The notes under the pieces are model-generated. The model saw only the letters and a list, made by a program, of their open reading frames with translations, did no database searches and was not told where the DNA came from. A stretch of DNA of 64,000 nucleotides from Antedon mediterranea (lineage: Eukaryota; Animalia; Echinodermata): contig NC_092671.1 of the NCBI RefSeq assembly GCF_964355755.1, positions 2,480,001 to 2,544,000 on the forward strand, read 5' to 3'. Shown one piece after another: positions 24,501 to 64,000 of the stretch. The first letter of the stretch is position 1. Every line of letters starts with the position of its first letter. The translations under genes and the position numbers were made by a program.

Positions 24501-27500
24501 ACACAACAATTTGCCATGGCGGGTCTAGGAGTTTAGAATAATAGTTGGTGGGGTATTTTCCCAAATGACGTAAAATCAAAATGGTACTGTGTTATGATGT
24601 ACTAGTATTCATGTCACCAATTAGCCATCCATTCTTTCATAGAACATACTGATGAAGAAGTCTAACTCTGGGGACTGTAAAATCGACCCCTGAGACATGA
24701 CTTTTAGCTGATTGGAGCTTTGGGGGTAGTGGCCAATAAAATAAAGGTAAATAAAAACGAAATACTGTGGACGAACCTTGCAATGAATAACAACAACATG
24801 CATTGGATCTGCTTTTAACCATGTCTCAATCTGCTTACAAATACTGCAAAGTTGCTCTAGAGGGGGCGCCAGATGATCAGGCCAACCGATGTCGACAACC
24901 TGAGGAGATAATTTTAAAAAGATCACCAAAATGTCATCAAAACTTTAAACTTTATCAAAATCACATTCTTTTCAGGGAACTATCAATAATTTTTGACAGT
25001 TTAAGTGTAACAATTGGGAACAATTCCAAATTCTTTTTTTTTTAAAGAAATCTTCGGATATTTTATGATAAAAAACAAGACATTATGAAGCTTAACTGTA
25101 TTTCAAATTTATTTGATATTTACCAACAAAGACGAGTCTTCATGTTAAAACTCAATTCAAATTTGAAATCTCACCTGCATATTAAGTTTGTTGATGTCCC
25201 GTCGCCGTCGTGACAAATTAAAAAACAAATAGTTGTTTCCATGTTTTCTTTGTAGCATCTGTACAACATCTTTTAAATTTGCTTGATATTGCGATTCAAG
25301 TCCACCGGCAGGGAATGACATTGCTACAAGGTAAAAAACACAATAAAGGTAAATGCGAAGTCCATGTTTATGAACATAGGGGAATCAGCTGTTAGGGGTC
25401 AATGTACTAAGTCTCTGGGCAAACTATTTAAAAAAAATATCATACACATCCATACAGGTCCACTCCATTTTGTTGAAATAAAATTAAATAAATATATCTA
25501 TTTTTTAACAAGCTTATAGACAGGGAGGGGTTTGAGGGTTCAAATGAACACCCTTTTGCATGTACAAACTAGAGAACAGCAATGGAAGTGATTTTTGGTT
25601 GTCTTAAAATCGAACCACCTGTAAAAATCCTGGTTACGAACTTGTATACAAATAAACATACTAAACATTTCAAATTACCATTAAAGTACCAAAAGTACCG
25701 TATAAAAAGTTTGACTTTTATATTAATAATTATTGAGTATTAATCATTTTTTGCACCTTTTCATGAGTGAAAATAATAATAAAACTCCACATTAAATTGA
25801 TTATTGTGAAGGTTACCATAAAACATTCATGATAACATAAAATATACACGCATACAGATATATTCGGGATCAAACATGTTGCCATCCATTAAAGGCTTAG
25901 AGAACGAAAAGTTAAGGTATTGTTTATGTCATTTAACATTCAACATTAATGCACTTGGAATTATCTGACCACACGTTTATTTCACACTCATGCTCTAAAC
26001 TTATTTCTGTTAAACTACATAATGTGTAGGAGTGTTTATTGCACTCAGAAAGGAGAATAAGTTAAGTTTGGACTAATTCTATTGAGTTAAAGTGAGTTAA
26101 ATCAATAGTTATAAATTTACAGGCATAGAACAATTAATTAATCAATTAATTTATAAACAATAAATGTGAAAATTAATGTGAGGATCAGAAAAAGCCATCC
26201 TCAACCAAGATTCAAATTCGGGACATTCTGCTTGATATGCAGATGTCCTAAATCACTGGGGCTTTCATGATATTGTTCAAATTCGATTGGATAGTAAGCC
26301 CACAGTATCTATTCTTTACAATGACAATATCATCCTTTCACCACATGTCAAGTGACTATGCGATATTAAGTTCCACAATGATTCTACACTTGATAGACGT
26401 GTAGTGTGCATTGTGAAAATAAAAGTTTGCTATTAATAATAAACCTTATACAGAACAAATAACAATATAGTCCTACTTTTTGTGCGTAATTCATTCTGTC
26501 TATTCTATCTACTGGTACTCAAAAGACAACATACTTTCATGTTTTTAGTCATGTACCAGAGGGCCAAGAGATCAACATTGAAATACATAAATATTCTTTC
26601 TAGACTCCCTGTGTATAAATGGCACCATAAAAGAGGAATGTCATCACTCTATAATGTTTCACGAGCCATTAAACTTGTCCTTAGAAGCAACTAATATATT
26701 GTGTTGAGCATGTCTATCAGAAAGGAAATGTTTTACTGCATGGAAAATAATCAAAACTTTTAGTCGTTTGTCACCAATTTTGTTTGCATCATTGTCTAGC
26801 CCTTCACAGTACCACATGTTCATAGTCTATGAACTAATATGGTCACCTAATGTTATTACGTAACATTGATATGTGATTGATGGGCCCTATGTACTTGGTA
26901 ACCTCATAATTGGGCATTTAGACTGAATTTTCCTATTCCGAGTAATTTCCGAGAGTTTATATAAAGATATATTCTACCAGTTAAATCATAATTTTCAATA
27001 GCAAATTTACTAGTGTTATATTGCAATGCAATTTGAAATAAATAAATGTATACTTACATATAATGCGTTCTGTTATGTAATCCACATCCAAGTCTAACGA
27101 CTCCATTATGTAACTTTCCACCCCTCTGTAAAACAATCAAAGTTAATTGTTTTAAACTTCATAAATAATGTATCCTCACCCTTTCCAAAATATTGGAGTA
27201 ACTGTTGATGTTTTCATTTTATATTGTATCACTGTGTAAACATTGATATTTATTTTATATTAGCATCATTTATTTGTACTAGGGCTCAGTACTGGGTTCT
27301 CCAAAGTCAATGTTGAAGTGTGAATTGAGGTCAATGGCACTTGCCATCATTTACCTAGACAGATCTCACAGAAAATAAATACGTCAGTTGTAGGTATGAC
27401 ATCAAAATAGATAATGCCTTATAAGGCAATGAATAAGTTTAAGAATTTAGCATAATGTTAATCATTTTGTACATACTTTTACTTTTAGTTTCAGAAAACT

Positions 27501-39500: not shown

Positions 39501-42500
39501 AGACAAAGTTCCCAAACTTAATCAAAACAGTTTTAGTGGGACAAGTATTTTTAAGATTTTATATGTGGTTGTGAAAATTCCTACTATAATTCAATAAATG
39601 TGGTTTTTATTGACAGCTAAATATTCTGTTAATCTTCTACTAAACAATTATGTGAAACTATGTAATGTACTACAGTCCTCAGTTGAGCAAAGTTGGAATA
39701 GAGACTCTACGGACCAAGTTAGGTAGCAATAGTACAGTGCCCATCATTCCAGCACATTGAGAAAAGATTCCTTCTCTGTTTGGATAGCAAACAAGCTGCT
39801 TCTTGTTCATGCTTTATACCGAAATAAATAAATAACAAATAAATAAAACCTAGTTTTTAATTGTACGGTATACCCCTTTCACATCACCAAGTCAAACTCT
39901 GGACTTGTATCGTGCGCACACTCGCCGAGTTTTGCTCAACGAACATACATCTCTCTTACAGTATAATGTAGATGGCATCAATCAATCAATCAATCGTTCG
40001 ATTTATATAGCGCCATTCCAACATTCATTGCTCATGGCGCTGTAAAAAAAATCAGAAAAGGTGAGTTTTGAGTAGTGACTTAAAGTGACTCAATAATGAT
40101 GTGTGTTTAATGTTCAAGGGTAGGTGGTTCCAGAGCCTAGGTCCAGCAACTCTGAAAGTCCGATCTCCCCAACTATGTTTGCTCCTTGGAATGTCCAGTA
40201 GCACCTGATGACTAGATCTTAGTTCTCGCTTTCCCTTCTTGACTGTCAACAATTCTGAGAGATATTTTGGAGCACAACTATTTAGGCATCGGAACACCAG
40301 CAGCAGGATCTTAAATTTAACACGTGACTCCATGGGTAGCCAATGTAACTCTTTGAACAAGCCATAAAACCATAAAACCATAAAATATGTTAGTTTAGGA
40401 TTTATAAAAGTATAGTGACATACTGTACCTTATTTTATAGTACCTATGCTTATATTATAGTTCTCTGGTTGACACATTCAAGTTTGTTTGAAATTGATAA
40501 ATATAATAACCAAAACATACAAAAATGTATTTACATTTATGCAGTGGGTTGAATGTTTTATCTAGCCATCACTGATAACCCAAAAAACGCACCTACCTGG
40601 TACGTCAACAGGTGCCAAGAATGCACTAAGGCTAGCTAGATACAGTTTTTTAATATCATCAATCATATAAACAAGCATTTAAATGTCAGCACCCATTTTA
40701 CTAATCAATAAAATTTGTTTATATCAAATGTTAAAAAAATATATATAGGTTTGCGATTTACAGGTTGCAAAATGAGGTATCTTTGCGTAGGAGGAAGATG
40801 TTTACCGGAAGTTTTATTTATTACATTCATATGAGATGTTCTTTTTTTTTTTTGGTAAATTCATTTAATAAAACTTGAATGTAATAAATCAAAAATTCCC
40901 CCTTTGTGAGTCTTCTTTAATAATCCCAGAATCCTACTCCTGCCCTTTTATACTACCATGATGAATGTCATTAGCCTCCTGTTCACCAAACTTGAAGTCA
41001 AAACTATATTGTTGTTTAATTAGCAACTTGAAATAGCTTTCATAAATAAATCTTACAGTGTTCTTTCAGGCATTGACCCCCTATTTAAAATACAATTGTT
41101 TGTCTAGGTAAATTACCCCAAATATTAGATAATTGCGTAACTAGTTAATAAAATATACATAAATGATAAATGTGAACTACTGCGAAGTAGCTTTGCGTCA
41201 GATAATTTGCCCCAGTCTGATGCAATTATACTGTTTACGTCAGAATAGGACCTAGTACAATTATGTCACTCGGAATAGGGGCTAGTACAATTACGTCCCT
41301 CAGAATAGCTAGGTCTAGTAGATGTCCCTCATAAAAGGGCCTAGTAGTAGTACAATCATATCACTCATAATAGGGCCCAGTAAAACATCAGAGTCTGACC
41401 AATTAAAATACACAACAAAACTGTAGGATGAACGTTAAACAACAGTTTGTGATGGCGCCATGTGCATTAGCTCAATAAAGACGAAAGTGATATTTTTTAC
41501 TGATGTTGAGAGGTCAATGTATTTTGTCAAGCATTGGGAGGTCAATTAATGTAAAATCCTATTAATATTAGAAATAAGACTTCTACTCTAAAATTTTAGA
41601 ATTAAAATCAAGTAAATTGATATGATGCTAATGATGACAATGACTTTGATTTTGATTTGATTTTAAATTGGTAATGGTGTGATTAGTCATAATGATAACA
41701 TTAACAATGATAATAAACAATGACAAATTATGGTAATGGTACTGTATATATTAATTATCAGTTGTTGATGTTAATGTTAAAAATTGTGATAAATATGATA
41801 ATTGTAACATATTAGTATTAAACCAAATGTTGACATGACCAGTAAAATGATGCAACTAAAATATTGTGTCAATTTACAAATAAAACCAATCGGTTTTTTA
41901 TCCATATTTAAGCGCAAAGTGTTCAAAGGTGCTAAGGCTAGTAATGTAAAAAGGAGCAGAGTAAATGTAATTTATTGGCCTTTATCCAAATGGAGTAAAA
42001 AAGGCCTAGAAAGGGTATTTTGCTTGTTTTTGTGTAAAAGAGAACAAAAACGATTAAAACTGATATCGGAATAATGAATATTGTTGTCACATAAAGTGGT
42101 GGATTATTATTTGAAGATTTCAACATCAATAAATCTATCAAAAGTTGTTTAATTTAAGTATGTACAATAATCATTGTCAGGAGTTGGATAGCCGAGTGGT
42201 TAGGACACTTGACTGTCATACAGATAGACCCGGGTTCAATTCCCGACAACTCCCAGTCCACTCAGCTGTAAATGAGTACCTGGTTGAAAATACTAGGGAG
42301 AAAAAAGGCGGCGTGGAAAGGAACTGGCCACCCTACCACATAATGCCGAGGCTTAGTACAATGAGCTCGTAACAGCTCATTTCCCTACGTTCAAAGAACA
42401 CGGGACTCACCTTTACCTTTACCTTACAATAATCATAAACTAATTAGAAAATAAGAATAAGAAATATGCCAGATCTTAATTATTTAAAAAATTAAAGAAT

Positions 42501-45500
42501 AGGTAATAAAACATACGAGAAAGAAAAGAAAGATTGAACATTAAAGAAAGATTGAAATGGAAAAAAAGATTGAAAATGGAACAAAGAATAAAAATGTAAA
42601 AAAAAATGGAACAAAGATTGAAAATAGATTAAAGATTGAAAACGGAACAAAGATTGAAAATAGAAGAAAGATTGAAAATGGAACAAAGACTGAAACTTAC
42701 CAATTCGTAGTTAACTGGTGGAGAACATCCTGTTGCTACCTACAAAATTAAACCAAACAAAAGTTTAACAAACAGAAATGAAACCTACTATCATTATGAC
42801 ACCAATATCGTGCACAATTAATATATTAATATTAATAACGGATTGCAATAAGTACTGTTGAATGAAGAGTAAACCAACACTCACTGGAACGGAATGCCTG
42901 CAGCAAAAATAAAATCCAAATTAAATGAAACAACAGCGATATATTTACAACGAACAAAAGCCGATGGCAAAGTAATAAAAAGTTATTTTAAAGTTTTGAT
43001 GAAACAGAAGAATACTGGAAAACTTGCCGACAATTCTCACAAGTTTATTCACATTAAAACAAGTTTTCTATGTAGTGTATCTTACCTAGATACTAGTGGA
43101 AATAAGATAGAGATACTTGGTAGTTAAGCAAACACTCAATTGCTATTTAAATAACGCTATGTATGAAAGTATCCCTGATGGGAAATATCTGCTTTGTAGG
43201 GTTTCACTATTCCCTACGGGCTTTTAAAAAAACAACCTACAACACCACATTTCTCTGAAATATATTATCAAATTATGGAGATTAACCTATAAAACATAAT
43301 TAGTATGGTTTACGTGAGTTTTGCACTTGAATAAAACTAATGGATTTTTAATCCAGTATATAAAAGAGATTAATGGATTAGTTTTTATCTCTTATATTAG
43401 CATGTTCAATGAAATAAAAATTGTTTTAATTAACGAACATTTATTACTAATAACTGCATCCATCAGCCTTTCTTATACATAAAGTAACAAACAAATTCAT
43501 ATGAATATGATTATTTTTGTTCTCCTAATCTGTCTATCATATGTATTTTTATTGTTGGAAAAATAAATGAAATAAAAAGTCTTCAGATATACAGTACCAT
43601 ATATGACCAAATACAGTCCCAGTGGGCTTGGAAATCAAATGTTTGGGCCATAGCCAGAGGGTTAGTGTAGCCTTTTCAAACTAGACAAAGTATGACAAAG
43701 TATGGTAAATAAGGCTAACTAGCCTAGCTTATGATGATGTTTGCCCCTTTTGTGGAAAGCGGAAGACCACACCAACAACATCCCCCTTTCACCCCTGTAA
43801 ACATCCTGACTACAGGCTTGGTTGGATTGCATCATCACTGGCAAATTGAGGGGGTGGGGTTATACTCACACATGGGACTATACAGGGGGTGGGGTTATAC
43901 TCACACATGGGACTATACAGGGGGTGGGGTTATACTCACACATGGGACTATACAGGGGGTGGGGTTATACTCACACATGGGACTATACAGGGGGTGGGGT
44001 TATACTCACACATGGGACTATACAGGGGGTGGGGTTATACTCACACATGGGACTATACAGGGGGTGGGGTTATACTCACACATGGGACTATACAGGGGTG
44101 GGGTTATACTCACACATGGGACTATACAGGGGGTGGGGTTATACTCACACATGGGACTATACAGGGGGTGGGGTTATACTCACACATGGGACTATACAGG
44201 GGGTGGGGTTATACTCACACATGGGACTATACAGGGGGTGGGGTTATACTCACACATGGGACTATACAGGGGGTGGGGTTATACTCACACATGGGACTAT
44301 ACAGGGGGTGGGGTTATACTCACACATGGGACTATACAGGGGGTGGGGTTATACTCACACATGGGACTATACAGGGGGTGGGGTTATACTCACACATGGG
44401 ACTATACAGGGGGTGGGGTTATACTCACACATGGGACTATACAGGGGGTGGGGTTATACTCACACATGGGACTATACAGGGGGTGGGGTTATACTCACAC
44501 ATGGGACTATACAGGGGGTGGGGTTATACTCACACATGGGACTATACAGGGGGTGGGGTTATACTCACACATAGGACTATACAGGGGGTGGGGTTATACT
44601 CACACATGGGACTATACAGTACACATTGATGATATGGCATTACATTTTGAAAATTACCTTTTCATAGTAACCAAAAATATTTTCATAGACATATCTTGGA
44701 GACAACATACATAAGGAGACATGGTATCAAATTTAGAAAATGAATTCCGCAAGAAATTTAAAACAGTTACAACTCATGAGGTGGTCATTGTCAGTTTATA
44801 ATTAACCCTATTGACTGGACTCTAGAGGGGGTATAATATTCATACCAACAGTTGTCAGACTTAATATGTATTTTGCTGACTAAATACACCCTTTAATAGG
44901 GTTGTTGTACCCATGGAGAACCCAACCAATGTCTTGTTTTGTACTTGATCTTAAGTTCAACGTATCCCTTGGTGTTCTACCTAATTGTTTGTTAAATTTT
45001 CATAAAGTAGGTGAATGCGTCCTAATTTACGCTGGTGATAAGACGATGTTTTGTTATTCAAAATAATGGTTTTCCTTTCAAATTTGTATAAAATAACTTT
45101 GTTGTATATAAAATTAAAATAATGCCTGTGGATAGGGCATCCCAAACAAAGAAGAAATACTTATTTCATTCATAAAATCATATAATATCTGGGTAGAAAT
45201 CAAAAACCAATTATTTAAAAATAATATTGCCAACAAAAGTATGCAAAAGCTAATGGTATATTCATCTTTAGTAAATATTATTCTTCAATATATCCCAGTG
45301 ATATAAATATATACGTAATTAAGGACATAAAAAGATAAGAACATACTTAAATGATGCAATACAACCAATAGGAACTAATAATGAAGTGACAACAACAATA
45401 TAGGCTGAGGTCACGTAAAAACAAGCAGCAACGAATATGAACAGATTAACAACTAAACCTATTGCACCAATAGATAGTACATACAATCCAACATACAGGT

Positions 45501-54500: not shown

Positions 54501-57190
54501 AGAAATAGTAATTTAAGATTCAGGAAATGTTATTTGTCCAATTAAAATGGAAATTCACTTTGCTTGACATAAAACAATAAAAGTAAAATGAAAAATGACT
54601 TGACTTTCAAATTCAAAGTATTTAAAATAGTTATTTTATGCTATTGCGCCCTCTATAGTTAGTTTAAGTAGTTTATAGTGTTAACCGGGGGAATCTGAAT
54701 ATTTATACTGTAGATACACAGCAGTACATGTAATGTAACTTGAATTATTTAAATCAATAGTTGCATGCTACTATAGTTTCTATGGTAACTATAAACATGA
54801 ATTTATACTGTAAATAGACATGTAACTAGAATCAATAATATGTTGAATATACTAATATAGTTTCTATGGTAATTATGAGTCTATAAACATTTATTTGTAA
54901 TGATTTAATTATTTTAGAAAGTTATGACCATCACCATCATCATAATATAAGAGTTAGATGCTGGCTGGAAATTTGAGGTAATCCTATTGAAGAATCACAA
55001 ATTATTTGTTATAGCAATTTCTGGGCTTGAGATTGATTCCTGCTTGGATGCAAGGTAAGGGCATACGCGCAAGTTGACCAATCAATAGTTTTTGTTTCTT
55101 TTTTCCTTTTTTCTCTTCGCATCCAACAGTGAGTAACTCATCAATTAAAGGATAGATAAAGTTTATAAACTCATTTGAGTGGAGTTGAAAGCAGTGGCGT
55201 ATCCAGGATTTCGAAGTTGGGGGGCCGGGAATTGCCAATTTGCCGACAAAATTGGTGTCATTATCTGTACATACACCTGATCAATACATGTTCTAGGATT
55301 GCATAGTCATATTGTCTTATATGGGATAACGTTGCAAAATTAAAACCAAACCAACATTATCTGTTAGTATGTTGTATTCATATTACAATAAAGAAAGAAT
55401 TAGGAAAATCTGACTTGTAGTTTTCGAAATATAGGGTCTAAAACATCGCCGAAAGTGATCGCTTTTAGCCACGAAAGAAGTAAAACAATTTGCGGCCTCA
55501 GTCGACAATTCTATTAACTACGCCATTTTTGGTTAAAATAATTACATATAATTACGTTTTTTAGTAATTTATTTTATATATCACCATTGGAAATATCAAT
55601 AAAACATGTTATTAAATGCTTATAAAATATATAAAGTTGTTTACTTAACGGAATTCGGGCAAATTCATTGCTCTAACTTTGTGTAGTAACGATCAGAGAG
55701 ATTCATGGTACACGCGCGACAGAAAACATTCCGCTGCGGGTGATTCGCATCCACCAATCAAATCAGCCAGAATCCAAAATCATTCAACCGTGAGCAATGC
55801 CAATCGCGAGAAAGCTCAGCTTTGATTGGCTTACGATGACATCATATCACAAAATGATGGTTTTGTTCCAAAAATGAAATACTTGGATATTTTTTATGGT
55901 ATGAGTGCTTTTTCTTAAAAAATTTTGAATAATAAAGGCCTCATATCGAGAAAAAACGGGTTTTTGGCACTTATAATAAATATATCTAAGACAAAAAAGC
56001 ACATGGCATGTGGAACTATATAATCTTAGCGTAGGAAGACATACAAATCCCAGGTCATGAGAGGCTCAACTGCAAAAACAAGGTTGAAAATAGGGTAAGG
56101 TCAAAGACTTTTGAGTAAAGCGTGGTTCCCACTTGCGACGCAACGCAAGGACGTAACGCAACGCAAGTGAATTGACCAATCACAAGCGATGGCTTATTCC
56201 CTTGTGATTGCTAACCGTCTATATCTATAACTTCGCTTTTCATTGGCGTTTACGTCCTTGCGTTACGTTCTAGTGGGAACCACGCTTAAACAATCTACCG
56301 CGTACGGCCGTACGTACGTGCTAGGTAGTACGATATTTTGACCACATTTTTTACTTGTTTCGCTAGATGTAATGAAAATAAAATAGTTGATCTGAAGCGA
56401 TCAATGATATGATATGTAAATAAACAAACACTCAAAATAATTATGTTTACAGTTCAATTAGTGAGAATAATACAGTAGTTTATTTTTTTCCCCGGCACCT
56501 TTGTTTGCCGACGGATGCGATGATGTGCCGACGGACACGAAATCAGGGGGGCCCGGGCCCCCCGGCCCCCACTGGATACGCCACTGGTTGAAAGAGTTGT
56601 TAAACCATGAAACTTGGACATGATTGAAACCTAGACATGATTGGGATTGGAAGGCAAAAATGTTAACCACCAAGCTACCTCCACTCCCGTTCGAATGATA
56701 CATCCCTTGATAGGTAAATGTACTTGTGCTTACGTCCTTGTGTTCTAGTGTTCTAGTGGAAACCAAGCTTTATGATAGAAAACTTTTATAGGTTTAACAT
56801 CAAAATAATAAAGAAATGTTAGACAATAATTTCTCTCTTCATACAACCAATGTCACTCTCATCACCTAATTCAATTCAACACATTTATTTTTATTACATA
56901 TTTAATTTCAAAAGTTTAAATTTCAATAAAAATTTTTATTTTCTTTGAATATTTATCTCTTAAATAAGTTAGTATTTTTCTTGATGTCATAACAGAAAAT
57001 TATATAGAATACAGTACTAAAAATTTGAATGTAATTTATTCAGCAATTAAGTTCTGAAATGGAGGCCATTTTTTATTCCATCTTGAAATTTAAGGATGAC
57101 TACAGTAATTCTGTAATGGCAACGATGCAAGAAATATAAAGTAATATATTACCTTAAATTCACACTTGTTATGACACGCATACTTGCAAA
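354..57190 (-). CDS. TNS: Tensin (C1 partial - PTEN-like PTP - C2 - low-complexity middle - SH2 - PTB); 27 coding exons in window, 5' end outside window
   Basis: Exons join in phase through GT-AG introns into one 7421-nt frame. Tensin hallmark motifs present: [96 protein letters not shown]. Confidence 0.96.
709..777 (-). CDS. TNS: Tensin PTB exon
   Basis: [22 protein letters not shown]; cag/gtgggt; phase 2-2. Confidence 0.95.
1145..1313 (-). CDS. TNS: Tensin PTB exon
   Basis: [16 protein letters not shown]...[17 protein letters not shown]; cag/gtgagt; phase 1-2. Confidence 0.95.
1352..1565. repeat. (TGAATAA/TGAATATAA)n microsatellite
   Basis: Directly visible. Confidence 0.9.
1747..1815 (-). 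CDS. TNS: Tensin SH2-PTB linker exon
   Basis: [22 protein letters not shown] (compare LLKQGAAC of vertebrate tensins); tag/gtatgt; phase 1-1. Confidence 0.9.
2147..2689. mobile_element. Non-autonomous DNA transposon with TTAA TSD (Kolobok-like)
   Basis: TTAA|AGATGTATTGTCCCTT ... AAGGGACAATACATCT|TTAA; a solo matching end occurs at about 7183-7200. Confidence 0.8.
3143..3411. mobile_element. Palindromic MITE with TTA TSD (PIF/Harbinger-like); partial second copy at about 22061-22182
   Basis: TIRs AGTTCTGTCTACACTA / TAGTGTGGACAGAGCT; internal duplicated hairpin unit. Confidence 0.7.
3438..3611 (-). CDS. TNS: Tensin SH2 exon (C-half)
   Basis: [41 protein letters not shown]...[10 protein letters not shown]; tag/gtaaga. 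Confidence 0.96.
3917..4045 (-). CDS. TNS: Tensin SH2 exon
   Basis: [42 protein letters not shown]; the FLVR-type Arg is intact; cag/gtgagt. Confidence 0.96.
4405..4482 (-). CDS. TNS: Tensin SH2 N-terminal exon
   Basis: [25 protein letters not shown]; tag/gtgagt. Confidence 0.95.
5559..5872 (+). mobile_element. tRNA-derived SINE (central domain resembles Deu/Nin-type SINEs)
   Basis: A box TGGCCGAGCGG, B box GGTTCGAGGC, core CGGATAAGGACTATAAACCG...GAGTAGGGGGTTACCCCGGTG, (AAAC)n tail. Family assignment is from memory. Confidence 0.8.
7345..7457 (-). CDS. TNS: Tensin Ser-rich pre-SH2 exon
   Basis: [37 protein letters not shown]; phase 2-1 fits both neighbours; cag/gtaact. Confidence 0.85.
8704..10384 (-). 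CDS. TNS: Tensin large low-complexity exon (1681 nt) containing the [10 protein letters not shown] repeat
   Basis: Open frame of 559 codons; tttcag acceptor and AG/gtaagt donor; phase 1-2. Confidence 0.85.
9786..10055 (-). repeat. Coding 30-bp tandem repeat, 9 x GTPLVGTPQ(H/Q)
   Basis: Direct 30-nt periodicity inside exon 8704-10384. Confidence 0.95.
10496..11971 (+). mobile_element. Non-autonomous Helentron/HINE (DINE-1-like architecture)
   Basis: 13-bp subTIR AGGTTATATGCAT (10501) with a local inverted copy (10518), (TTTA)n microsatellite, 3' subTIR (11926), hairpin AATTCGTCA-tag-TGACGAATT, then CTAGTT. Confidence 0.8.
13838..14046 (+). mobile_element. L2-type LINE 3' end fragment
   Basis: Decayed ...LPASIRS...[10 protein letters not shown]; CGCGCC...GGCGCG 3' stem; (TAT)n tail. 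Confidence 0.75.
15812..16013 (-). CDS. TNS: Tensin exon (PETPGFP..PTTPY motif); alternative in-frame acceptor possible at 16031
   Basis: [17 protein letters not shown]...[20 protein letters not shown]...GGAPQ; ttctttcag/gtaagt. Confidence 0.88.
16168..16346 (-). CDS. TNS: Tensin middle-region exon
   Basis: [30 protein letters not shown]...PGGQPHT; ttccccag/gtaggc; phase 1-0. Confidence 0.85.
16657..17918 (-). CDS. TNS: Tensin large exon (1262 nt) with (PDNPA)5
   Basis: Open frame of 420 codons; tgcag/gtaagg; phase 2-1. Confidence 0.85.
17462..17542 (-). repeat. Coding 15-bp tandem repeat (PDNPA)5
   Basis: TCTGGGGCTGGATTA periodicity. Confidence 0.95.
19314..20821 (-). CDS. TNS: Tensin large exon (1508 nt)
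   Basis: TPDASNF...[16 protein letters not shown]...RMHQIE; ttacag/gtaagt; phase 0-2. Confidence 0.88.
20983..21131. repeat. 25-bp palindrome-rich tandem repeat
   Basis: GCTAGTACTGTGCTAGTAGTACTTG units. Confidence 0.9.
21161..21513 (-). CDS. TNS: Tensin post-C2 exon
   Basis: Contains [10 protein letters not shown] and [16 protein letters not shown] (LD-like motif); cag/gtaagc. Confidence 0.92.
21781..21954 (-). CDS. TNS: Tensin C2 C-terminal exon
   Basis: [14 protein letters not shown]...[13 protein letters not shown]; cag/gtaaga. Confidence 0.95.
22507..22636 (-). CDS. TNS: Tensin C2 exon
   Basis: [23 protein letters not shown]...[11 protein letters not shown]; tag/gtatgg. Confidence 0.96.
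23166..23238 (-). CDS. TNS: Tensin C2 exon
   Basis: [24 protein letters not shown]; cag/gtatga. Confidence 0.94.
23789..23849 (-). CDS. TNS: Tensin C2 exon
   Basis: [19 protein letters not shown]; cag/gtaagt. Confidence 0.95.
24002..24198 (-). CDS. TNS: Tensin PTP/C2 junction exon
   Basis: [13 protein letters not shown]...[16 protein letters not shown]...GVPNFDTEG; cag/gtaggt. Confidence 0.96.
24319..24383 (-). CDS. TNS: Tensin PTP exon (second half of P-loop)
   Basis: [21 protein letters not shown]; tag/gtaaat; phase 0-2. Confidence 0.94.
24777..24899 (-). CDS. TNS: Tensin PTP exon (WPD loop, HCK)
   Basis: [41 protein letters not shown]; cag/gttcgt. Confidence 0.96.
25175..25323 (-). CDS. 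TNS: Tensin PTP exon
   Basis: [49 protein letters not shown]; tag/gtgaga. Confidence 0.95.
27058..27125 (-). CDS. TNS: Tensin exon at the PTP domain start (internal ATG: [10 protein letters not shown])
   Basis: [22 protein letters not shown]; ttacag/gtaagt; phase 2-1. Confidence 0.95.
28320..29245. repeat. 41-bp minisatellite (33- and 40-bp variants) built from the tensin exon 3' end plus 5' splice site
   Basis: Unit CTGGGAGGGGTGATAGGTTGATATGTACTCTAGTATCTTAC; 18 CTTACCTGGGA copies from 28543 to 29233; about 6 degenerate ~33-bp units at 28320-28540. Confidence 0.95.
29228..29304 (-). CDS. TNS: Tensin C1-PTP linker exon whose 3' end and donor seed the adjacent minisatellite
   Basis: Strong ttttattcttttag acceptor; [25 protein letters not shown] + AG/gtaaga. 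Phase 0-2 is exactly what is needed to bridge 31277 to 27125. Confidence 0.8.
29791..30051. mobile_element. Old MITE family (AGTGAAACCTCTATTAAGGGGACA / GTGTCCCYTAATAGAGG motifs)
   Basis: Related degenerate copies at about 4580-4750, 6250-6350, 13625-13770, 36080-36200 and 63010-63175; superfamily uncertain (Tc1/mariner-like). Confidence 0.5.
30199..30386. mobile_element. Palindromic MITE-like repeat; second copy at about 37290-37490
   Basis: Nested inverted repeats (CAGGACACTGAGCT/AGCTCAGCATTCTG; TGGCTGCGACA/TGTCGCAGCCA) shared by both loci. Confidence 0.6.
31277..31318 (-). CDS. TNS: Tensin C1-PTP linker micro-exon (42 nt)
   Basis: Pyrimidine-rich ...tgtttgcag acceptor, gtaagt donor; [14 protein letters not shown]; phase 0-0. 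Confidence 0.75.
34205..34452 (-). mobile_element. Diverged copy of the same SINE family
   Basis: Reverse-complement match to the 5559-5780 core (ggtaaccccctactcgtctcg, tttatagtccttatccgagaagact). Confidence 0.75.
39977..40362 (-). mobile_element. L2-type LINE, 5'-truncated (ORF2 C-terminus plus 3' UTR)
   Basis: LHWLP...[21 protein letters not shown]...LRS...GDRTF.VAGP.LWN.LP...[10 protein letters not shown]; AGCGCCAT...ATGGCGCT stem; (ATTG)n tail. Confidence 0.9.
42175..42424 (+). mobile_element. tRNA-derived SINE with 12-bp TSD and (CCTTTA)n tail
   Basis: TSD TACAATAATCAT at 42163-42174 and 42425-42436; A box TAGCCGAGTGG; B box GGTTCAATTCC. Confidence 0.88.
42520..42695. repeat. 18-bp degenerate tandem repeat abutting the donor of exon 42701-42739
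   Basis: AAAGATTGAAAATGGAAC units. Confidence 0.85.
42701..42739 (-). CDS. TNS: Tensin micro-exon ending the C1 domain (39 nt)
   Basis: [13 protein letters not shown] (resembles the VAxPCVPPSNHEL segment of vertebrate TNS1, recalled from memory); ttgtag/gtaagt. Confidence 0.85.
43850..44618. repeat. 35-bp G-rich minisatellite, 22 near-identical copies
   Basis: Unit GGGGGTGGGGTTATACTCACACATGGGACTATACA; I see one G deletion and one substitution. Confidence 0.97.
49761..50680. mobile_element. Non-autonomous DNA transposon with 3-bp TSD (PIF/Harbinger-like)
   Basis: TAT|GGGCCTGTTTCTGCTGA ... TCAGCAGAAACAGACCC|TAT; many subterminal AAYCGATT motifs. Confidence 0.85.
51232..51348. repeat. Three ~35-40-bp tandem units
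   Basis: CTGATRAAAGAAGAAGCACTGAGATTTGTAAGTTCT repeated. Confidence 0.75.
55192..56586. mobile_element. Non-autonomous hAT-like element
   Basis: Perfect 15-bp TIR CAGTGGCGTATCCAG; 8-bp TSD GTTGAAAG at 55184-55191 and 56587-56594. Confidence 0.9.
56119..56286. mobile_element. Harbinger-like MITE nested in the hAT-like element
   Basis: TAA|AGCGTGGTTCCCACT ... AGTGGGAACCACGCT|TAA. Confidence 0.85.
57153..57190 (-). CDS. TNS: Tensin C1 zinc-finger micro-exon (38 nt)
   Basis: [12 protein letters not shown] matches the C-x4-H-x2-C portion of C1; ttcttccag/gtaata; phase 1-0. Confidence 0.88.
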
Positions 57191-58009: not shown

Positions 58010-58345
58010 TTGTTTTTTCATTTATTTCTTCAACATCAAAAATGTCGTGGGATCTCAAAAGCAACAGTCACCATAACCTATAGGGCCCCAAAAGAACTTA
58101 ACTACATAGAATTATTTATCAAAATACAAAATACATTTAAACATATATAAAAGGATAATGAAAATTGATTCTGATATGATCAGTGACACTATTACGACAA
58201 TTGATATACAGACATCGAAAAACTAACAAGAATAAAAAAACTTCACGTCGGTCCTTAAGGGACAACCAATTTAGTTTCTTCAGCCGCTCCTTGTACGGAA
58301 TAACTCCCAATCCAACTCCATCCAATATACGCTTAGTGGCACGCC
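58010..58345 (-). mobile_element. CR1/L2-group LINE ORF2 C-terminal fragment
   Basis: PYKERLKKLNWLSLKDRR...LVFRCL motif; boundaries approximate. Confidence 0.65.
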
Positions 58346-59059
58346 GCTGGATTTGTCAATCAGTGCTTCGCTTAAACTGGTCTCCATGCTGGTGGGCCAT
58401 ACTCAATGATGGGTAATACCATGGTTTTATAAAGACAGGACATTGCCTCAGGAGAACTGTCATCAGCATGGGAACCAACACCAACCTTTGTATATCTGTT
58501 GATTAAACAGTTTTCTGACATCTTCTGATGTGTTATTAATATATGGTACTTACAGTATAAGGCCTCCTACTAAAAAGATCAGAGCCTTGTACATACATCA
58601 TAAAATGATACATCTTAAAATTTCAAGAATTAAAACATACGGAAAAAATAATTAAGGTTAAAATTTTGCAGTATATAAATAAAACGATCATTACTAGAAT
58701 AAAAATTACTTAGTCTTTTTGATAACAAGACGTCACAGTAAAAAAAAAAACTGACGTGCAATCTGTATTTGCACATTATCTGAGCTGTTTTCAATTCTAA
58801 AATGATGTTTTTCACAATGTTTATTTGTATACCAATTGAAACCAAAACAATTACTTTGCAAATATTATTTTCGGTAAATGTTATCAACTCTTATAAGTTT
58901 TATGGGACAGGTTGTGCGATAATATTCAAGTAAACATTTTAATTATATTGATATATTTGGCTTTCACAGAATCTAATGTATTATTTTGCTGATAACACAC
59001 TTCTGCAAATAAAACAATCTATATGCTCAGCTAAAAAAAACTCTTTTACCCTATATAAT

Positions 59060-60830
59060 TTGCTGTAAATGTTATTAGGTTTTTGTGTGACAGGTTGTGA
59101 TAATATACAGGTAAGCCTCTCAGGTAACATTTTAATTATATCAATATTATTTGACTTTCAAATAATTTAATGTTGTATCTTTAATTTTTTTTGTTGAAAT
59201 TTAAGGGGAAGAGGGGTGGAGGGGTCGGAGGGGCATGCACCAGTCCACTAATTGGATCTGACTATGAATTTCAAATAAGTTCCTTTTCTTAAAATTTATA
59301 TGTTTTGGGAAAACATTAAGAATTCATTTTTTTTGTTGCAATTAAAAGTAAACTTAGTTTGGCATATAGTCCTTCTTATAAATTAATAATTAATTAGAAA
59401 CTGTAATCATTAGGCAACTTCTGTAAATAAAATTAATTTTGACAAAAAATGTAAAGTCTTGCAAATTGTATTTGGTTTTTTATTTTTACAAATTGTGTTT
59501 TTGACAACATAATGTTTATTTAACACTCATATCAGAACCCAATCACAAACCCATTGTACCAGACAATAACCATTGAATAATAATGAAATCTATAATCTAC
59601 TATGGTCATCAACGTTATCATTGATACAAGTGTTTGTGTGACAGAAGGTCGTGGGATAATATTAAGGTAACATTTCAATTATATAGTTATAATTTGGTTT
59701 TCACAGAAGATTTTCAGAATGAATTTAAATAAAACTAGAATTTAATTAAGTCACTTTGATGAATTATACTGTAGGTGATCCTTGTGATGGAAGATAATTT
59801 TACTAGCATTTACTAGCATTTAATTTTGTTTAATGCAACATGCACGCACATTATTACCCAATGTAATGTGTTACAGTATATATTGTACGCACCAGTGTAG
59901 AGGTGAAATTTAAATAAAATACGGTAAACAATTCCGGTTTTGGGAAAGTATAAGTAAGGTAAAATGATTAAATTTCCAGGAATATACCCATATTTTCTAC
60001 ACTTTCTCAAGCCCATCCTCAAGCACCAAATTTTGCATCTTTAGTCGTCCAGTAGGTAACGTAACGCATAACATTGGTTAGATATCAAAATTGTGTGTGT
60101 ACCTTGAGCTGTAACGAACGAAAGATCACTGTCGTAAGAGGTGGCTTCCACTACTCTTTTTCTGGTTCAGACCTATGGAGTTGTACAATACAAAAGTATA
60201 ACTCCGCAGCTTCAACACGACCACAATGCTGTTTTTGCTATTTTCCCCTAACTCTGTGCTGTAAATGTGACAGGTTGCGATAATATCCAGGTTAGCCTAT
60301 CTTGTAACATTTTGTTATATCGATATCATTTGCCTTTCAAATAATCTAATTTTTTATCGTTTGTATTGTTTTTGCTGAAATTTAGAGGGGTTAGAGGGGC
60401 ATGCAGCAATCCACTAATTGGATCTGAATTTCAAATAGGGTCTTTTTCTTAAATGTATGTTTTTGGAAAACATAGGGGAGTAATTCTTTTTTTCAATAGG
60501 CTTAAAAGCAAACTTAGTTTCCTTTCTTATAAATAATAATAAAATAAAATCTTTAATCATTAGGCTACATCTGCAAATAAAATAAAATTGATTTTAATTA
60601 AAGTCATGGAAGGCTTGCAAATTGTAAATGGTTTTTGCATTTAGTTATACAAATTCTATTATTGACAACATAATGTTTATTTTACACTCATATCACAACT
60701 CGATCACAAACCCATTGTACCATACAACTTAACAATAACCCTGTCAACTAATAATACAATCTATAATCTGCGACGATCTTTCATTTATACATTATGTATT
60801 TTTGTGACAGACGGTCGTGGTCGTGAGATA
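59060..60830. repeat. Diverged local duplication (about 59060-59670 vs about 60255-60830)
   Basis: Shared blocks GGGGCATGCA..TCCACTAATTGGATCTGA, AAACTTAGTTT, GACAACATAATGTTTATTT, ATCACAAACCCATTGTACCA. Confidence 0.85.
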
Positions 60831-61272
60831 ACTTCCTGATTGATTGATCAAAATGGTACTGGGTTTGGTCTACTAGCGTTCCTGCTCCCAACTCATCACC
60901 CATTCATAGAAGCCTTGATGAAGTAAGCCTACCTGGTGGTGACTATAGAATGGTATATACTTCGGCTTTAGAAAATATTGATTTCTAGATGATAGTTTAA
61001 AATGTATAGTACAAATCTTCACTGTAGCTGTTATTAAATGTGTATAATTAAGTTAAGATATGTTAGAAATATTGATATTTCATCATCAGTCAAATTTAAT
61101 TAGATTGGATAATTATTACGATCAATACCAGTTCTTTGATATCTTTCACAGTTCACAGTATCTCGATGAGATTGGATGATTATATGTAATACTAGCTCTT
61201 TTTATTCTCTTATTTGTTGTTCACAGTGTTTGGGACTGAGCATATAGTAGATCTCAAGGTACATACAACATC

Positions 61273-61330
61273 ATGAAGATTTTCAGTGGAAAATCTGTTT
61301 TTATGTGTTTCTGTTTCATACTGGTATCAG
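61273..61330 (+). CDS. Nested gene exon: signal peptide (exon acceptor probably at 61227)
   Basis: ATG at 61273; MKIFSGKSVFMCFCFILVS then G/gtaggt (phase 1); upstream ttgttcacag acceptor. Confidence 0.7.
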
Positions 61331-61350
61331 GTAGGTTTTTTACACTTTAC

Positions 61351-61858
61351 ATTCATTCATTCATTCATCTTTTATTTTGGAAAAAAAAAATTCTCCATAG
61401 TTCAGTAACAAATTAGTGTACATTATTGCAAATATAACAAATACATATAAATATATATGTAGATATATATAAAAAAAACCTATGCTACATAGTCACAGTT
61501 AGAACAATAGATTCATCCATCTACTATGTAGAATGGATGAAGGAAAAGCAAATTCATGAATACATTTTATGACAAAATTGTCTGACCTCCCTAACCTGCA
61601 CAACATGCCAAACACCACCTTACGTTGTAGTTCGTAGAACGAGCAGATGTGGTTTTCTACAAACATGGTGCTGGCACTGCATGACCTAGGTTTATTAAGG
61701 AGCAGGCGTAAGGCTTAGTGCTTCCATAGATTTTACATTAAAATTTGCCCACAAAGAAGCACAGTATAAGTTACTACAATATGTTTTAAACAAAAAACAC
61801 TTTATGTTTTTAGAGCATTTTGAGAAAGTTCTACATAGTGTATTAGCTCTAACTTTAC
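61351..61858 (-). mobile_element. 508-bp segment with 7-bp flanking repeat and (GAAT)n tail; probable retroelement 3' end
   Basis: ACTTTAC at 61344-61350 and 61852-61858; the segment is absent from the duplicate copy at about 63456-63462. Confidence 0.55.
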
Positions 61859-62137
61859 TGGCCAAGTAAGAAGTTTTTAAAAAGTTATGATTATATTAGG
61901 CCAGGAACACTGTACACTTATAATTGAAAAATTGGAAATCTGCTCAGGATAGATACAGATTTTACGTGGGACAAGTTATGCACTCGCCTATGTAAATTGA
62001 CAATAAGGAAAACGTACATGGTATACATTTTTTAATACACTAACCGTTTAAATGAAACAATTAAATAATATGATTTTCAATATTTATCCAAGCAGATTAA
62101 GGTCTACATGCCTTTAAATATATATATATATATATAT

Positions 62138-62302
62138 CCAATCTGCAGACAGTACTGTTTCGATCTTATTAGATCTCGTCAGTGCAGCTCAGGTTTCGAA
62201 ATGAAATGTACCGCAGAACTGGCACAATATATAGGCTGAGCCAGGTATGCGGGACATGGTACACTGATTATGAACACAAAGAGTGCACAAGCTCAACGAG
62301 CG
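62138..62302 (-). mobile_element. 165-bp hammerhead-bearing insert (retrozyme-like or Penelope-like fragment) in a (TA)n tract
   Basis: Absent from the duplicate copy at about 63728-63755, which shows only the (TA)n empty site. Confidence 0.65.
62143..62187 (-). ncRNA. Minimal type I hammerhead ribozyme
   Basis: Minus strand reads CTGCA-CTGACGA-GATCT-AATA-AGATC-GAAA-CAGTACTG-TC-TGCAG. Stem I 5 bp, CUGANGA core, stem II 5 bp, GAAA, palindromic stem III, GUC cleavage triplet. Confidence 0.9.
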
Positions 62303-62603
62303 TATATACAAATTAGGCATAGGAAAATCAAAATTGCACAGTAATACTAAAAATTAATGTTTATAAATATTGTTGAGAAACTAGAAAACTTATAGTGTGT
62401 TGGTATATATTACATAGGCTAATTTGCCTCTTGTGACCCAAAGTCGGCTATGCTTTGAAGCCCAGAATGGTACAAAACATTTTTGAAAATGAGAAAAAGG
62501 CGTCCTAATCGAGATTCAAACCAAGAACCCTCTGCAAACTTTTCTGAGTAACTAAACTTAAATTAACTAACTATAATTATTGTATATTATATCCCTACTG
62601 TAG

Positions 62604-62873
62604 GAAAGAAACTAGATATAACTATTGAAGGAGATAAGATATATAAGGTTGGGCAAGAATTGGAGTTAAAATGTCTTGGAAATGAGACAATGGATGCCAC
62701 CTTTAAATGGATTATAGAGCCTGATGACGATTTCAAATGTGTGCAAGAAAAAGGACCAAAGTTGACTGCAAAAATACCATCTATTTGCCAAGTAAACATC
62801 ACTTGTCTGGTTGAGGAGAACGGAAATTCTGGTTCTGAAACAATCCCACTGACCATTGAGGAGCCATGTTACA
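62604..62873 (+). CDS. Nested gene exon: Ig-like domain
   Basis: KKLDITIEGDKIYKVGQELELKC...FKW...VNITCLVEENGNSGSETIPLTIEEPCY. Shows B-strand Cys, C-strand Trp and F-strand Cys; two N-x-T sequons; symmetric phase 1-1 270-nt exon typical of Ig modules. Confidence 0.75.
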
Positions 62874-63271
62874 GTAATTATAAATACAATATTACAATTT
62901 TATTAAGCATTCCACTAAGTTTAAAGCCTCATTCATTCATTACTCCACCCATTATTTAAAATAATCAGTTATTTCATCAATAAGGTTTGTAATTGGTCAA
63001 ACATCTCTTCTTACAGTGCTTTCATAGCCCAACAAGTATCCTCTTAGTAGGGATGTCTCCTAATTAGGGATATGGCCTTTCCTTGTTCGTTTCATAGTAA
63101 AATGTCCCCTTAATAGGGATGTCCATTTAAGAGGAGTGTTCTCTGAATAGAGGTGTCCCAAAAAAGGGTTTCTTCTTTACTAATTACAGCCCCTAAAGTA
63201 TTATACTAATGACAAAAAATTCAATAATATGTATTTTTTATGGATGTTAATCTATTTTTGTAAATTTTTAG

Positions 63272-63328
63272 GAAATGAAAATGAAGAACCCGATGAAACC
63301 ACTCCAACCATGGAAACATGTTCTGATG
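63272..63328 (+). CDS. Nested gene exon: acidic/Thr-rich linker
   Basis: tttttag acceptor; NENEEPDETTPTMETCSD; G/gtaatt; phase 1-1. Confidence 0.65.
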
Positions 63329-63390
63329 GTAATTACAAATTTTTTTTTTTTGGTTGATGTAATCAGCTTGCTTTCAATACATATATTCAT

Positions 63391-64000
63391 ATTTTCAGTG
63401 GAAAATCTGTTTTTATGTGTTTCTGTTTCATACTGGTAGCAGGTAGGTTTTTTACACTTTACTGGCCAAGTAAGAAGTTTTTAAAAAGTTATGATTATAT
63501 TAGGCCAGGAACACTGTACACTTATAATTGAAAAATTGGAAATCTGCTCAGGATAGATACAGATTTTACGTGGGACAAGTTTTGCACTCGCCTATGCAAA
63601 TTGGCCTTGACAATAAGGAAAACGTACATGGTATACATGTTTTAATACACTAACCGTTTAAATGAAACAATTAAATAATATGATTTTCAATATTTATCCA
63701 AGCAGATTAAGGTCTACATGCCTTTAAATATAGATATATATATATATACAAATTAGACAGGCATAGGAAAATCAAAATTGCACAGTAATATACTAAAAAT
63801 TAATGTTTATAAATATTGTTGAGAAACTAGAAAACTTATAGTGTGTTGGTATATATTACATAGGCTAATTTTCCTCTTGTGACCTAAAGTCGGCTATGCT
63901 TTGAAGTCCAGAATGATACAGAACATTTTTGAAAATGAGAAAAAGGCGTCCCAATCGAGATTCAAACCAAGAACCCTCTGCAAACTTTTCTGAGTAACTA
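63391..64000 (+). repeat. Near-identical tandem duplicate of 61279-62554 (lacking two inserts); runs off the window end
   Basis: Base-by-base match from ATTTTCAGTGGAAAATC to TTTTCTGAGTAACTA. Confidence 0.95.

What the first reader, a model, noticed from the sequence alone, without database searches (positions are those of the whole stretch)
62138..62302. Intact hammerhead ribozyme in a 165-bp mobile insert, sense to the tensin pre-mRNA
Seen: a perfect minimal type I hammerhead on the minus strand, with predicted cleavage after GUC (between 62148 and 62147) and a palindromic stem III (ACAGTACTGT). The neighbouring duplicate shows the empty (TA)n site, which defines the insert. Established: minimal hammerheads with a palindromic stem III occur in Penelope-like elements and small non-LTR retrozymes of animals, and often cleave efficiently as dimers. 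Inference: this is a young retrozyme or PLE monomer. If the tensin intron spans this site, nascent long-isoform RNA could self-cleave while the nested plus-strand gene is spared.
Basis: partly seen in the sequence, partly recalled or inferred. Interest (0 to 1): 0.8.

Follow-up and report, generated by a model that had tools for sequence, protein, structure and literature searches.

The report
Truncated retrozyme copy in tensin intron
A 165-base insert carrying an intact hammerhead self-cutting RNA motif is one shortened copy of a very abundant repeat whose unit is likely about 190 bases; it likely sits in a tensin intron, was likely pasted in by a Penelope-type enzyme, and is probably an ordinary mobile-element insertion, not a control switch for the gene.

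Summary
In detail: an intact type I hammerhead lies on the minus strand (cut 62148/62147) at the 3' end of a 165-bp insert that the neighbouring duplicate lacks. It is not 'minimal' in the published sense: it has a 3-bp helix III, a distal helix I and U1.7. Sequencing runs show a high-copy family: summed contig depth is hundreds to about 1,800 times the flank. One contig holds a head-to-tail junction, which gives a 190-bp unit, so this copy lacks about 22-25 nt of its 5' head. A coral family with 241-246-bp tandem units shares helices I and III, and 73 of 89 copies end within 14 nt after the cut site. The intron condition is probably met: the second part of tensin's C1 domain is an internal exon at 57153-57190 and the first part is not in the window. 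Verdict: a new member of the known animal non-LTR retrozymes, in an echinoderm-type genome. Cleavage, circular RNA, the driver element and any effect on tensin are untested; a selected regulatory role is unlikely.

The parts
62138..62302 (-). Solo, 5'-truncated copy (165 bp, GC 0.46) of a non-coding repeat with a unit of about 190 bp; the ribozyme-side edge may extend to 62135
62138..62196 (-). Type I hammerhead ribozyme motif: proximal helix I (5 bp), internal loop and short distal helix, helix II (5 bp, 4-nt loop), helix III (3 bp, GUAC loop), complete catalytic core
62147..62148 (-). Predicted self-cleavage site, after GUC (C17 = 62148)
   Evidence: cleavage not tested
62149..62158 (-). 10-nt palindrome that forms helix III; predicted duplex -13.4 kcal/mol as a dimer against +1.3 as a hairpin at 37 C
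62141..62141 (-). U1.7, the seventh base after the cut, the position proposed to contact the last A of loop 2; U in 98 of 101 coral-type and 4 of 5 L026-type matches
62203..62257 (-). Predicted long hairpin in the body of the element, upstream of the ribozyme
   Evidence: prediction only
62117..62137 (.). (TA)n target tract at the ribozyme end of the insert
63727..63749 (.). Empty (TA)n site in the neighbouring duplicate
   Evidence: a 322-nt contig of run X1 with the duplicate's diagnostic letters bridges an empty site
61852..62554 (.). Copy of the local duplication that carries the insert; its partner starts at 63456 and runs off the window end (1.9% substitutions)
57153..57190 (-). Tensin internal exon (AG...GT) coding the second part of the C1 domain; its acceptor lies 4957 nt downstream of the predicted cut
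42701..42739 (-). Tensin exon following the C1 exon in homologues (13 codons, in phase with it)
27058..27125 (-). Tensin exon opening the phosphatase-like domain, with a Met that could start a short isoform
62604..62874 (+). Exon of a nested plus-strand gene, Ig-like domain, phase-1 splice sites on both sides
   Evidence: atlas 0.92-0.93 to Ig clusters; Pfam gave no match; contigs of run X5 begin at 62602

Best explanation
The insert is a shortened solo copy of an abundant, protein-free repeat of likely about 190 bases that carries a type I hammerhead motif (a non-LTR retrozyme), and it was likely pasted into a (TA)n tract of a probable tensin intron by a Penelope-type enzyme. Inferred mechanism: tandem copies elsewhere are transcribed, cut by their ribozymes into unit-length RNAs and closed into circles by a host ligase. 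A Penelope-type endonuclease nicks (TA)n DNA, the nicked end primes at the AU-rich stretch about 10-14 nt downstream of the ribozyme's cut site, and reverse transcription runs back through the intact ribozyme; here it stopped about 22-25 nt short of a full unit. Because the copy spans the cut site, the template must have been a circle or an uncut multimer, not a cut linear monomer. The place in tensin is likely chance. The copy may cut nascent long-isoform RNA at some rate, but most likely with little effect on mature mRNA and no selected role. Shown: motif, insert, repeat abundance, one tandem junction, end points, exon layout. Inferred: cleavage, circles, driver, priming.
For: Abundance: summed contig depth over the insert in X1 is 199,056-532,948 against 347-472 on the unique flank bins, and in X6 15,560-57,379 against 55-119; X8 reaches 179,179 against 504. 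The insert is covered in all 6 runs laid (of 11 listed), coded as organisms A, B and C. Tandem: one X1 row joins 62301 to 62135 through 23 letters at depth 301.6, so the unit is 167+23 = 190. Head: loose ends behind 62301-62303 start alike in X1 (7 contigs), X8 (7), X10 (2), X6 (5) and X9 (3). 5' truncation gradient in X1: 681,846 at the ribozyme, about 212,000-233,000 at 62243-62282, 28,359 at 62299-62306. Relatives: 107 of 135 pattern matches fall into two families and 98 of these keep helices I and II; tandem units of 241, 242 and 246 bp. One such locus (L037) carries a TRPA gene whose 5 named hits of 12 are all stony corals; the published Acropora unit is 220-245 bp (PMC7229834). Coral-type copies: 73 of 89 end within 14 nt after the cut, and 39 of those 73 meet (TA)3 against 2.9% background; 40 of 51 cover under 200 of 241 nt upstream. 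Two helix II pairs change on both sides. (TA)n targeting and 5' truncation are described for Neptune and Naiad elements (PMC8557442 passages), internal priming for a Poseidon element (PMC11167929), and a Penelope origin of retrozymes in bioRxiv 10.64898/2026.07.22.740005.
Against: The tandem unit rests on one contig row, at single-copy depth; no array was seen, and 193 loose-end rows were not shown. The loose-end consensus of X1 and one X9 contig continue differently past the shared head, which could be the body of a longer parent element. Summed contig depth is not a copy number by the tool's own statement. No genome is held, so copies, arrays and a driver could not be counted; six Penelope-like frames from the coral-type loci found nothing in the window. 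No circular RNA or cut end can be seen in contigs. Similarity to the relatives outside the ribozyme is weak: head alignments were matched by 8 to 209 of 500 shuffles. The covariation rests on 9 hand-picked sequences from three lineages, and helix III was fixed by my search pattern. In Xenopus only 1 of 9 dimers cleaved in vitro.
Confidence: 0.78

Rival explanations
1. The insert is the 5'-truncated 3' end (pLTR) of an autonomous Penelope-like retrotransposon, and the one 190-bp junction is a rare rearrangement.
For: Most Penelope insertions are 5'-truncated and carry the ribozyme near the 3' end (PMC8557442 passages; PMC4209133). A second, non-tandem continuation past the head is shared by the X1 consensus and one X9 contig. 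Depth falls steeply from 3' to 5'.
Against: Animal Penelope ribozymes are mostly minimal, without helix III, whereas this one has canonical architecture and U1.7. The X6 and X8 loose-end consensus runs into AT-rich letters right after the head, as a unit-length solo copy would. The coral family with the same helices forms ORF-free tandems, and the Penelope ORF in L062 is separated from them by microsatellites.
Confidence: 0.15
2. The copy is a working cis-regulator: it cuts nascent long-isoform (C1-containing) tensin RNA before the next exon is made and so shifts output towards the short isoform.
For: Sense orientation, intact core, and the first 28 residues of C1 are not found between the site and the next exon (best score 10 beyond 57200, self scores 105-113; the second part scores 52, next best 27). 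The cut is 4957 nt before the acceptor. The coral retrozyme cleaves as a monomer at about 0.8 per min in vitro (PMC7229834). The intronic CPEB3 ribozyme, 9.9 kb before its exon, lowers host mRNA (PMC10274809 passages).
Against: The copy is young (in one of two duplicates 1.9% apart), and in X1 only the empty duplicate's letters were listed on the flanks, so it may not be fixed. 42-44% of Xenopus retrozyme copies lie in introns, so the setting is common. Introns cut by a hammerhead were spliced normally in two studies, as reported in PMC2995048. A solo copy cannot dimerise in cis, and the monomer fold costs 4-6 kcal/mol in nearest-neighbour terms. Expression of the C1 exon was not tested.
Confidence: 0.05
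3. The filled state is ancestral and the empty duplicate arose by deletion between the flanking TA runs, or the two duplicates are haplotypes assembled in tandem, which would make this an insertion polymorphism.
For: TA runs flank both edges. 1.9% divergence is in the range of allelic difference in marine invertebrates (own knowledge). X1 shows only the second duplicate's letters on the flanks.
Against: The duplicates also differ by a 500-bp block and the sequence between them is not duplicated in the same register. The tool warns that missing contigs prove nothing. Either case leaves the identity of the element unchanged.
Confidence: 0.1

Closest known systems
Metazoan non-LTR retrozymes, coral type (Cervera and de la Pena 2020, PMC7229834; parts 1-4 of 6 read, supplement unreadable)
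   Same: Short (170-400 nt) non-coding unit, GC under 50%, type I hammerhead, many copies, head-to-tail junction; helices I and III match a 241-246-bp family from coral-type contigs.
   Different: Unit about 190 bp, different helix II and body, echinoderm-type host. This copy is solo and truncated. Circles and cleavage not shown. That my coral-type family is the published Acropora one is inferred from unit size only.
Retrozyme monomers and Penelope pLTR derivatives (Li et al., bioRxiv 10.64898/2026.07.22.740005; parts 1-3 of 5 read)
   Same: Dispersed solo monomers, often intronic, proposed to be moved by Penelope enzymes.
   Different: That study sampled vertebrates, three insects and one coral; a matching pLTR was not found here.
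Minimal hammerheads of Penelope-like elements (Cervera and de la Pena 2014, PMC4209133; parts 1-2 of 4 read)
   Same: Type I topology, palindromic helix III region, position at the 3' end of a truncated copy.
   Different: No ORF; helix III, distal helix I and U1.7 are present; no unpaired base between A9 and G10.1.
Conserved intronic hammerheads of amniotes (HH9/RECK, RF02275; PMC6155905 passages)
   Same: Best Rfam match; intronic, sense to the host pre-mRNA.
   Different: Below gathering score (32.5 against 52); one of many copies of a young repeat; no sign of conservation at this locus.

Membership tests
Type I hammerhead ribozyme | Complete catalytic core and three helices, helix I open | tested here: met
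Type I hammerhead ribozyme | Rfam gathering score | tested here: not met
   HH9 32.5 bits against 52; 0 matches at gathering
Type I hammerhead ribozyme | Self-cleavage | not testable with these tools
   only contigs were available
Canonical (tertiary-stabilised) type I hammerhead | Distal helix I and loop 1 / loop 2 contact bases | tested here: inconclusive
   U1.7 and an A-ending loop 2 are present and kept in relatives; the distal helix is short and has alternative registers
Minimal hammerhead of Penelope-like elements | No helix III or loop 3, unpaired base before helix II | tested here: not met
   3-bp helix III with GUAC loop, no extra base
Non-LTR retrozyme | Short unit of 150-450 bp, GC under 50%, no ORF | tested here: met
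   unit about 190 bp, GC 0.46, no stop-free frame above 54 codons over the insert among those listed
Non-LTR retrozyme | Occurs as head-to-tail tandems | tested here: inconclusive
   one junction row in X1; no array seen; the window copy is solo
Non-LTR retrozyme | Many genomic copies | tested here: met
   depth ratios of hundreds or more and varied flanks in several runs; not a true count
Non-LTR retrozyme | Expressed as monomeric linear and circular RNA | not testable with these tools
   no run on record as RNA; contigs cannot show circles
Autonomous Penelope-like element | RT and GIY-YIG ORF joined to the pLTR | tested here: not met
   none in the window; other copies in the genome could not be searched
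Penelope-mobilised insertion | 5' truncation, AT-rich or (TA)n target, optional 30-40-bp tail or inverted head | tested here: inconclusive
   truncation and (TA)n target are present; this copy shows no tail or inverted head (alignment)
Domesticated intronic ribozyme | Conserved at the same locus across species | tested here: inconclusive
   no filled-site junction was listed in any of 6 runs laid, but the tables are cut and holes prove nothing

The most novel reading that the evidence does not exclude
A freshly landed retrozyme acts as an isoform-selective self-destruct switch: it cuts nascent C1-containing tensin RNA 5 kb before the next exon and lowers the long isoform, while sparing the short isoform and the nested antisense gene. 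Hundreds of such sense-strand intronic copies would then make retrozymes a standing source of heritable gene-dosage variation in invertebrates, using one ribozyme design shared almost unchanged between corals and echinoderms.
Probability: 0.12. Interest if true: 0.65.

Novelty: new member of a known kind. Interest (0 to 1): 0.3.

Why it matters
As it stands, it adds an echinoderm-type family to a known class of animal elements. My two literature searches on this showed no report of an echinoderm retrozyme; the library lacks most subscription journals and relevant supplements were unreadable. Two points are useful beyond the locus. First, solo copies in coral-type contigs, and this copy, end just after the intact ribozyme at an AT run, which fits priming on (TA)n DNA from a circular or uncut template, a step that is still only proposed for retrozymes. 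Second, a filled and an empty version of the same intron site give a ready test of whether a sense-strand intronic hammerhead costs its host gene anything; one search for an orientation-bias study found none.

Tried and rejected
28 of 135 pattern matches, including 11 of 13 in prokaryote genomes, do not form the helices and were set aside as chance or unrelated. No second copy of the insert in the window, and the head motif had 1 two-mismatch match, at chance level. No RNA holder listed; X5 is only a guessed RNA run, so its depth was not used as evidence of expression. Nearest-neighbour folding cannot decide activity: the penalty for the active fold is 4.1 kcal/mol here against 4.8 for L029 and 5.1 for L026 at 37 C, and core and tertiary contacts are ignored. 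Horizontal transfer between corals and echinoderms was considered and not claimed: only the ribozyme aligns well (89% over 54 nt to L026-type, 82% over 45 nt to coral-type), the pattern forced 20 of those bases, and the head match is marginal. Pfam and solved-structure searches named nothing for the nested exon. No paper holds the core sequence as text. The supplement of PMC7229834, which may show the coral ribozyme and further phyla, could not be read; bioRxiv supplements are closed. PMC5680766 passages had no mention of echinoderms; PMC3365414 passages added nothing.

Full report
Observation. The minus strand at 62196-62138 reads as a type I hammerhead with a complete core. Helix I pairs 62187-62183 with 62147-62143, helix II has 5 bp and a 4-nt loop, and the 10-nt palindrome at 62158-62149 gives a 3-bp helix III with a GUAC loop. 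Rfam gives nothing at gathering score in the window but matches Hammerhead_HH9 at E 6.3e-6, 32.5 bits against a threshold of 52, in a 1501-base search. A pattern scan found this one site in 64 kb; 100 Markov controls gave 14 relaxed sites and none with stems as strong. The duplicate from 63456 lacks the 165 bp and matches at 523 of 533 aligned bases. No target-site duplication can be read inside the (TA)n tract.

Kind of ribozyme. The published minimal hammerheads of Penelope elements lack helix III and have an extra base before helix II (PMC4209133, parts 1-2 of 4). This motif has neither trait. It has a short distal helix I and a U at the seventh base after the cut, the position proposed to pair with the last A of loop 2 (PMC11875169 passages). 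So it is of the canonical metazoan kind. A palindromic helix III that forms a 10-bp stem in a dimer is already described (PMC3088659, legend of Figure S8). Folding predicts -13.4 kcal/mol for that duplex and +1.3 for the hairpin. The active monomer fold costs about 4 kcal/mol in the short fragment and more with flanks, the same as for two relatives, so this calculation does not decide activity.

The family. No genome is held. Eleven runs hold parts of 61000-63400, none on record as RNA; I laid six of them. Summed contig depth over the insert is 199,056-532,948 in X1 against 347-472 on unique flank bins, and 15,560-57,379 against 55-119 in X6. The tool states that this is no copy number; I read it as hundreds to low thousands of copies. 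In X1 depth falls from 681,846 at the ribozyme to about 220,000 in the 5' third and 28,359 at the last bases, the pattern of 5' truncation. Of 10 variant rows at 5% or more, one lies in the ribozyme and keeps its pair as U-G, so the window copy is close to the family majority. Loose ends behind 62301-62303 start alike in five runs. One X1 row joins 62301 back to 62135 through 23 letters, a head-to-tail junction that gives a 190-bp unit. The insert therefore lacks about 22-25 nt of its head. Against this: it is one row, many rows are hidden, and the X1 consensus and one X9 contig share another continuation past the head, which could belong to a longer parent.

Relatives. A narrow pattern found nothing. 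A broader one gave 118 metagenome loci from 31 of 64 parts and 13 prokaryote-genome loci. Of 135 matches, 102 belong to one family and 5 to another; 98 of these 107 keep helices I and II, and none of the other 28 does. The large family forms tandems of 241-246 bp. One of its loci carries a TRPA gene whose 5 named hits of 12 are stony corals, and the published Acropora retrozyme is 220-245 bp and cleaves at about 0.8 per min as a monomer (PMC7229834, parts 1-4 of 6). I could not confirm that it is the same family. Helix II shows two pairs changed on both sides among 9 chosen sequences, in effect three lineages. Outside the ribozyme the likeness is weak, so I do not claim horizontal transfer.

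Mechanism. Of 89 distinct coral-type contexts with enough downstream sequence (92 in all), 73 end within 14 nt after the cut, and 39 of these run into (TA)3 against a 2.9% background. Of 51 with enough upstream sequence, 40 cover under 200 of 241 nt. The window copy has the same layout, and in the tandem junction the element's own AT run follows the ribozyme. Loose ends on this side cluster at 62132-62135, but the stretch I laid began at 62131, so that cluster is partly forced. A cut linear monomer primed at this AT run would yield only 10-14 nt, so the template was likely a circle or an uncut multimer (inference). This fits the proposed retrozyme cycle, (TA)n targeting by Neptune and Naiad elements (PMC8557442 passages), internal priming by a Poseidon enzyme that needs no ribozyme cleavage (PMC11167929, parts 1-2 of 4) and the pLTR origin of retrozymes (bioRxiv 10.64898/2026.07.22.740005, parts 1-3 of 5). 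No driver was found: six Penelope-like frames from the loci have no match in the window.

Host gene. A tensin exon's three best hits are sea-urchin proteins at 66-72%; earlier unchecked notes call the genome a feather star. An exon at 57153-57190 with canonical splice sites codes the second part of the C1 domain (score 52, self 56-60, next best 27), and 42701-42739 follows it in phase. The first 28 residues of C1 score at best 20 in the window and 10 beyond 57200, against self scores of 105-113. Unless that exon is lost or split into very small pieces, it lies beyond 64000, and the insert is in the intron before the C1 exon, in sense, 4957 nt before the acceptor. A plus-strand Ig-like exon lies 300 bp away and is antisense to the ribozyme.

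Does it regulate tensin? Possible but unlikely. The copy is in one of two near-identical duplicates, and X1 lists only the empty duplicate's letters on the flanks (absence is no proof). 42-44% of Xenopus retrozyme copies are intronic and only 1 of 9 dimers cleaved in vitro. Introns cut by a hammerhead were still spliced, whereas a fast HDV ribozyme blocked splicing (as reported in PMC2995048 passages). In favour, the CPEB3 ribozyme affects its mRNA from 9.9 kb before the next exon (PMC10274809 passages), and a rate like the coral one would be fast enough to act within 5 kb. I put some measurable loss of long isoform at about 0.12 and a selected role at about 0.05.

Verdict. A real feature and a new member of a known kind: a truncated solo retrozyme copy. 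Searches for an echinoderm retrozyme and for an orientation-bias study showed none in the library held; unread supplements may bear on this. Several earlier unchecked notes reach the same kind of verdict in other animal genomes; they are not independent evidence. Interest 0.3.

Noticed in passing
window 61940-61982: A fragment of a second very high-copy repeat: summed depth 97,000-161,000 in X1, with shared GC-rich loose ends on both sides in all four runs and short go-back joints. Not identified.
   Followed up: no
window 57153-57190, 42701-42739 (minus): Small 5' tensin exons of a C1-containing long isoform, separated by introns of about 14 and 15 kb; at least one more exon is needed between 42701 and 27125 to keep the frame.
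   Followed up: partly
window 61227-63330 (plus): Nested plus-strand gene with an Ig-like exon and short exons; X5 holds one contig identical to the Ig exon and one with 14 differences in 99 bases, so an allele or paralogue exists.
   Followed up: partly
window 58900-60850: An older local duplication with about 1160-bp spacing and 76-90% identity beside the younger one.
   Followed up: no
L062:1550-4680 (minus): Frameshifted Penelope-like ORF (RVT_1 plus GIY-YIG, with a Cys linker as described for Neptune) upstream of a coral-type retrozyme tandem, separated from it by (GATA)n and (GA)n; a degenerate hammerhead-like motif seems to follow the ORF, read by eye only.
   Followed up: partly
   Followed up: no
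L026, L061, L079, L100, L104: A third family, closest to the window's ribozyme (89% over 54 nt) with a similar head and (TA)n flanks; host not determined.
   Followed up: partly
L019:1911-2107, L077:186-351: Coral-type copies with an inverted partial copy beside them, a layout described for Penelope insertions.
   Followed up: no
L005, L023, L047, L071, L103, L108: Six loci share a different repeat that matches the core pattern with a 17-nt spacer but fails my helix test.
   Followed up: no
window 43849-44619, 28558-29245, 9787-10070: Very homogeneous minisatellites (35 bp x 22, 41 bp x 17); the third (30 bp x 9.5) lies within a tensin coding exon.
   Followed up: no
window 40055-40429 and 58140-58566 (minus): Short frames that look like decayed LINE reverse-transcriptase tails (by eye; Pfam gave no match).
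   Followed up: no
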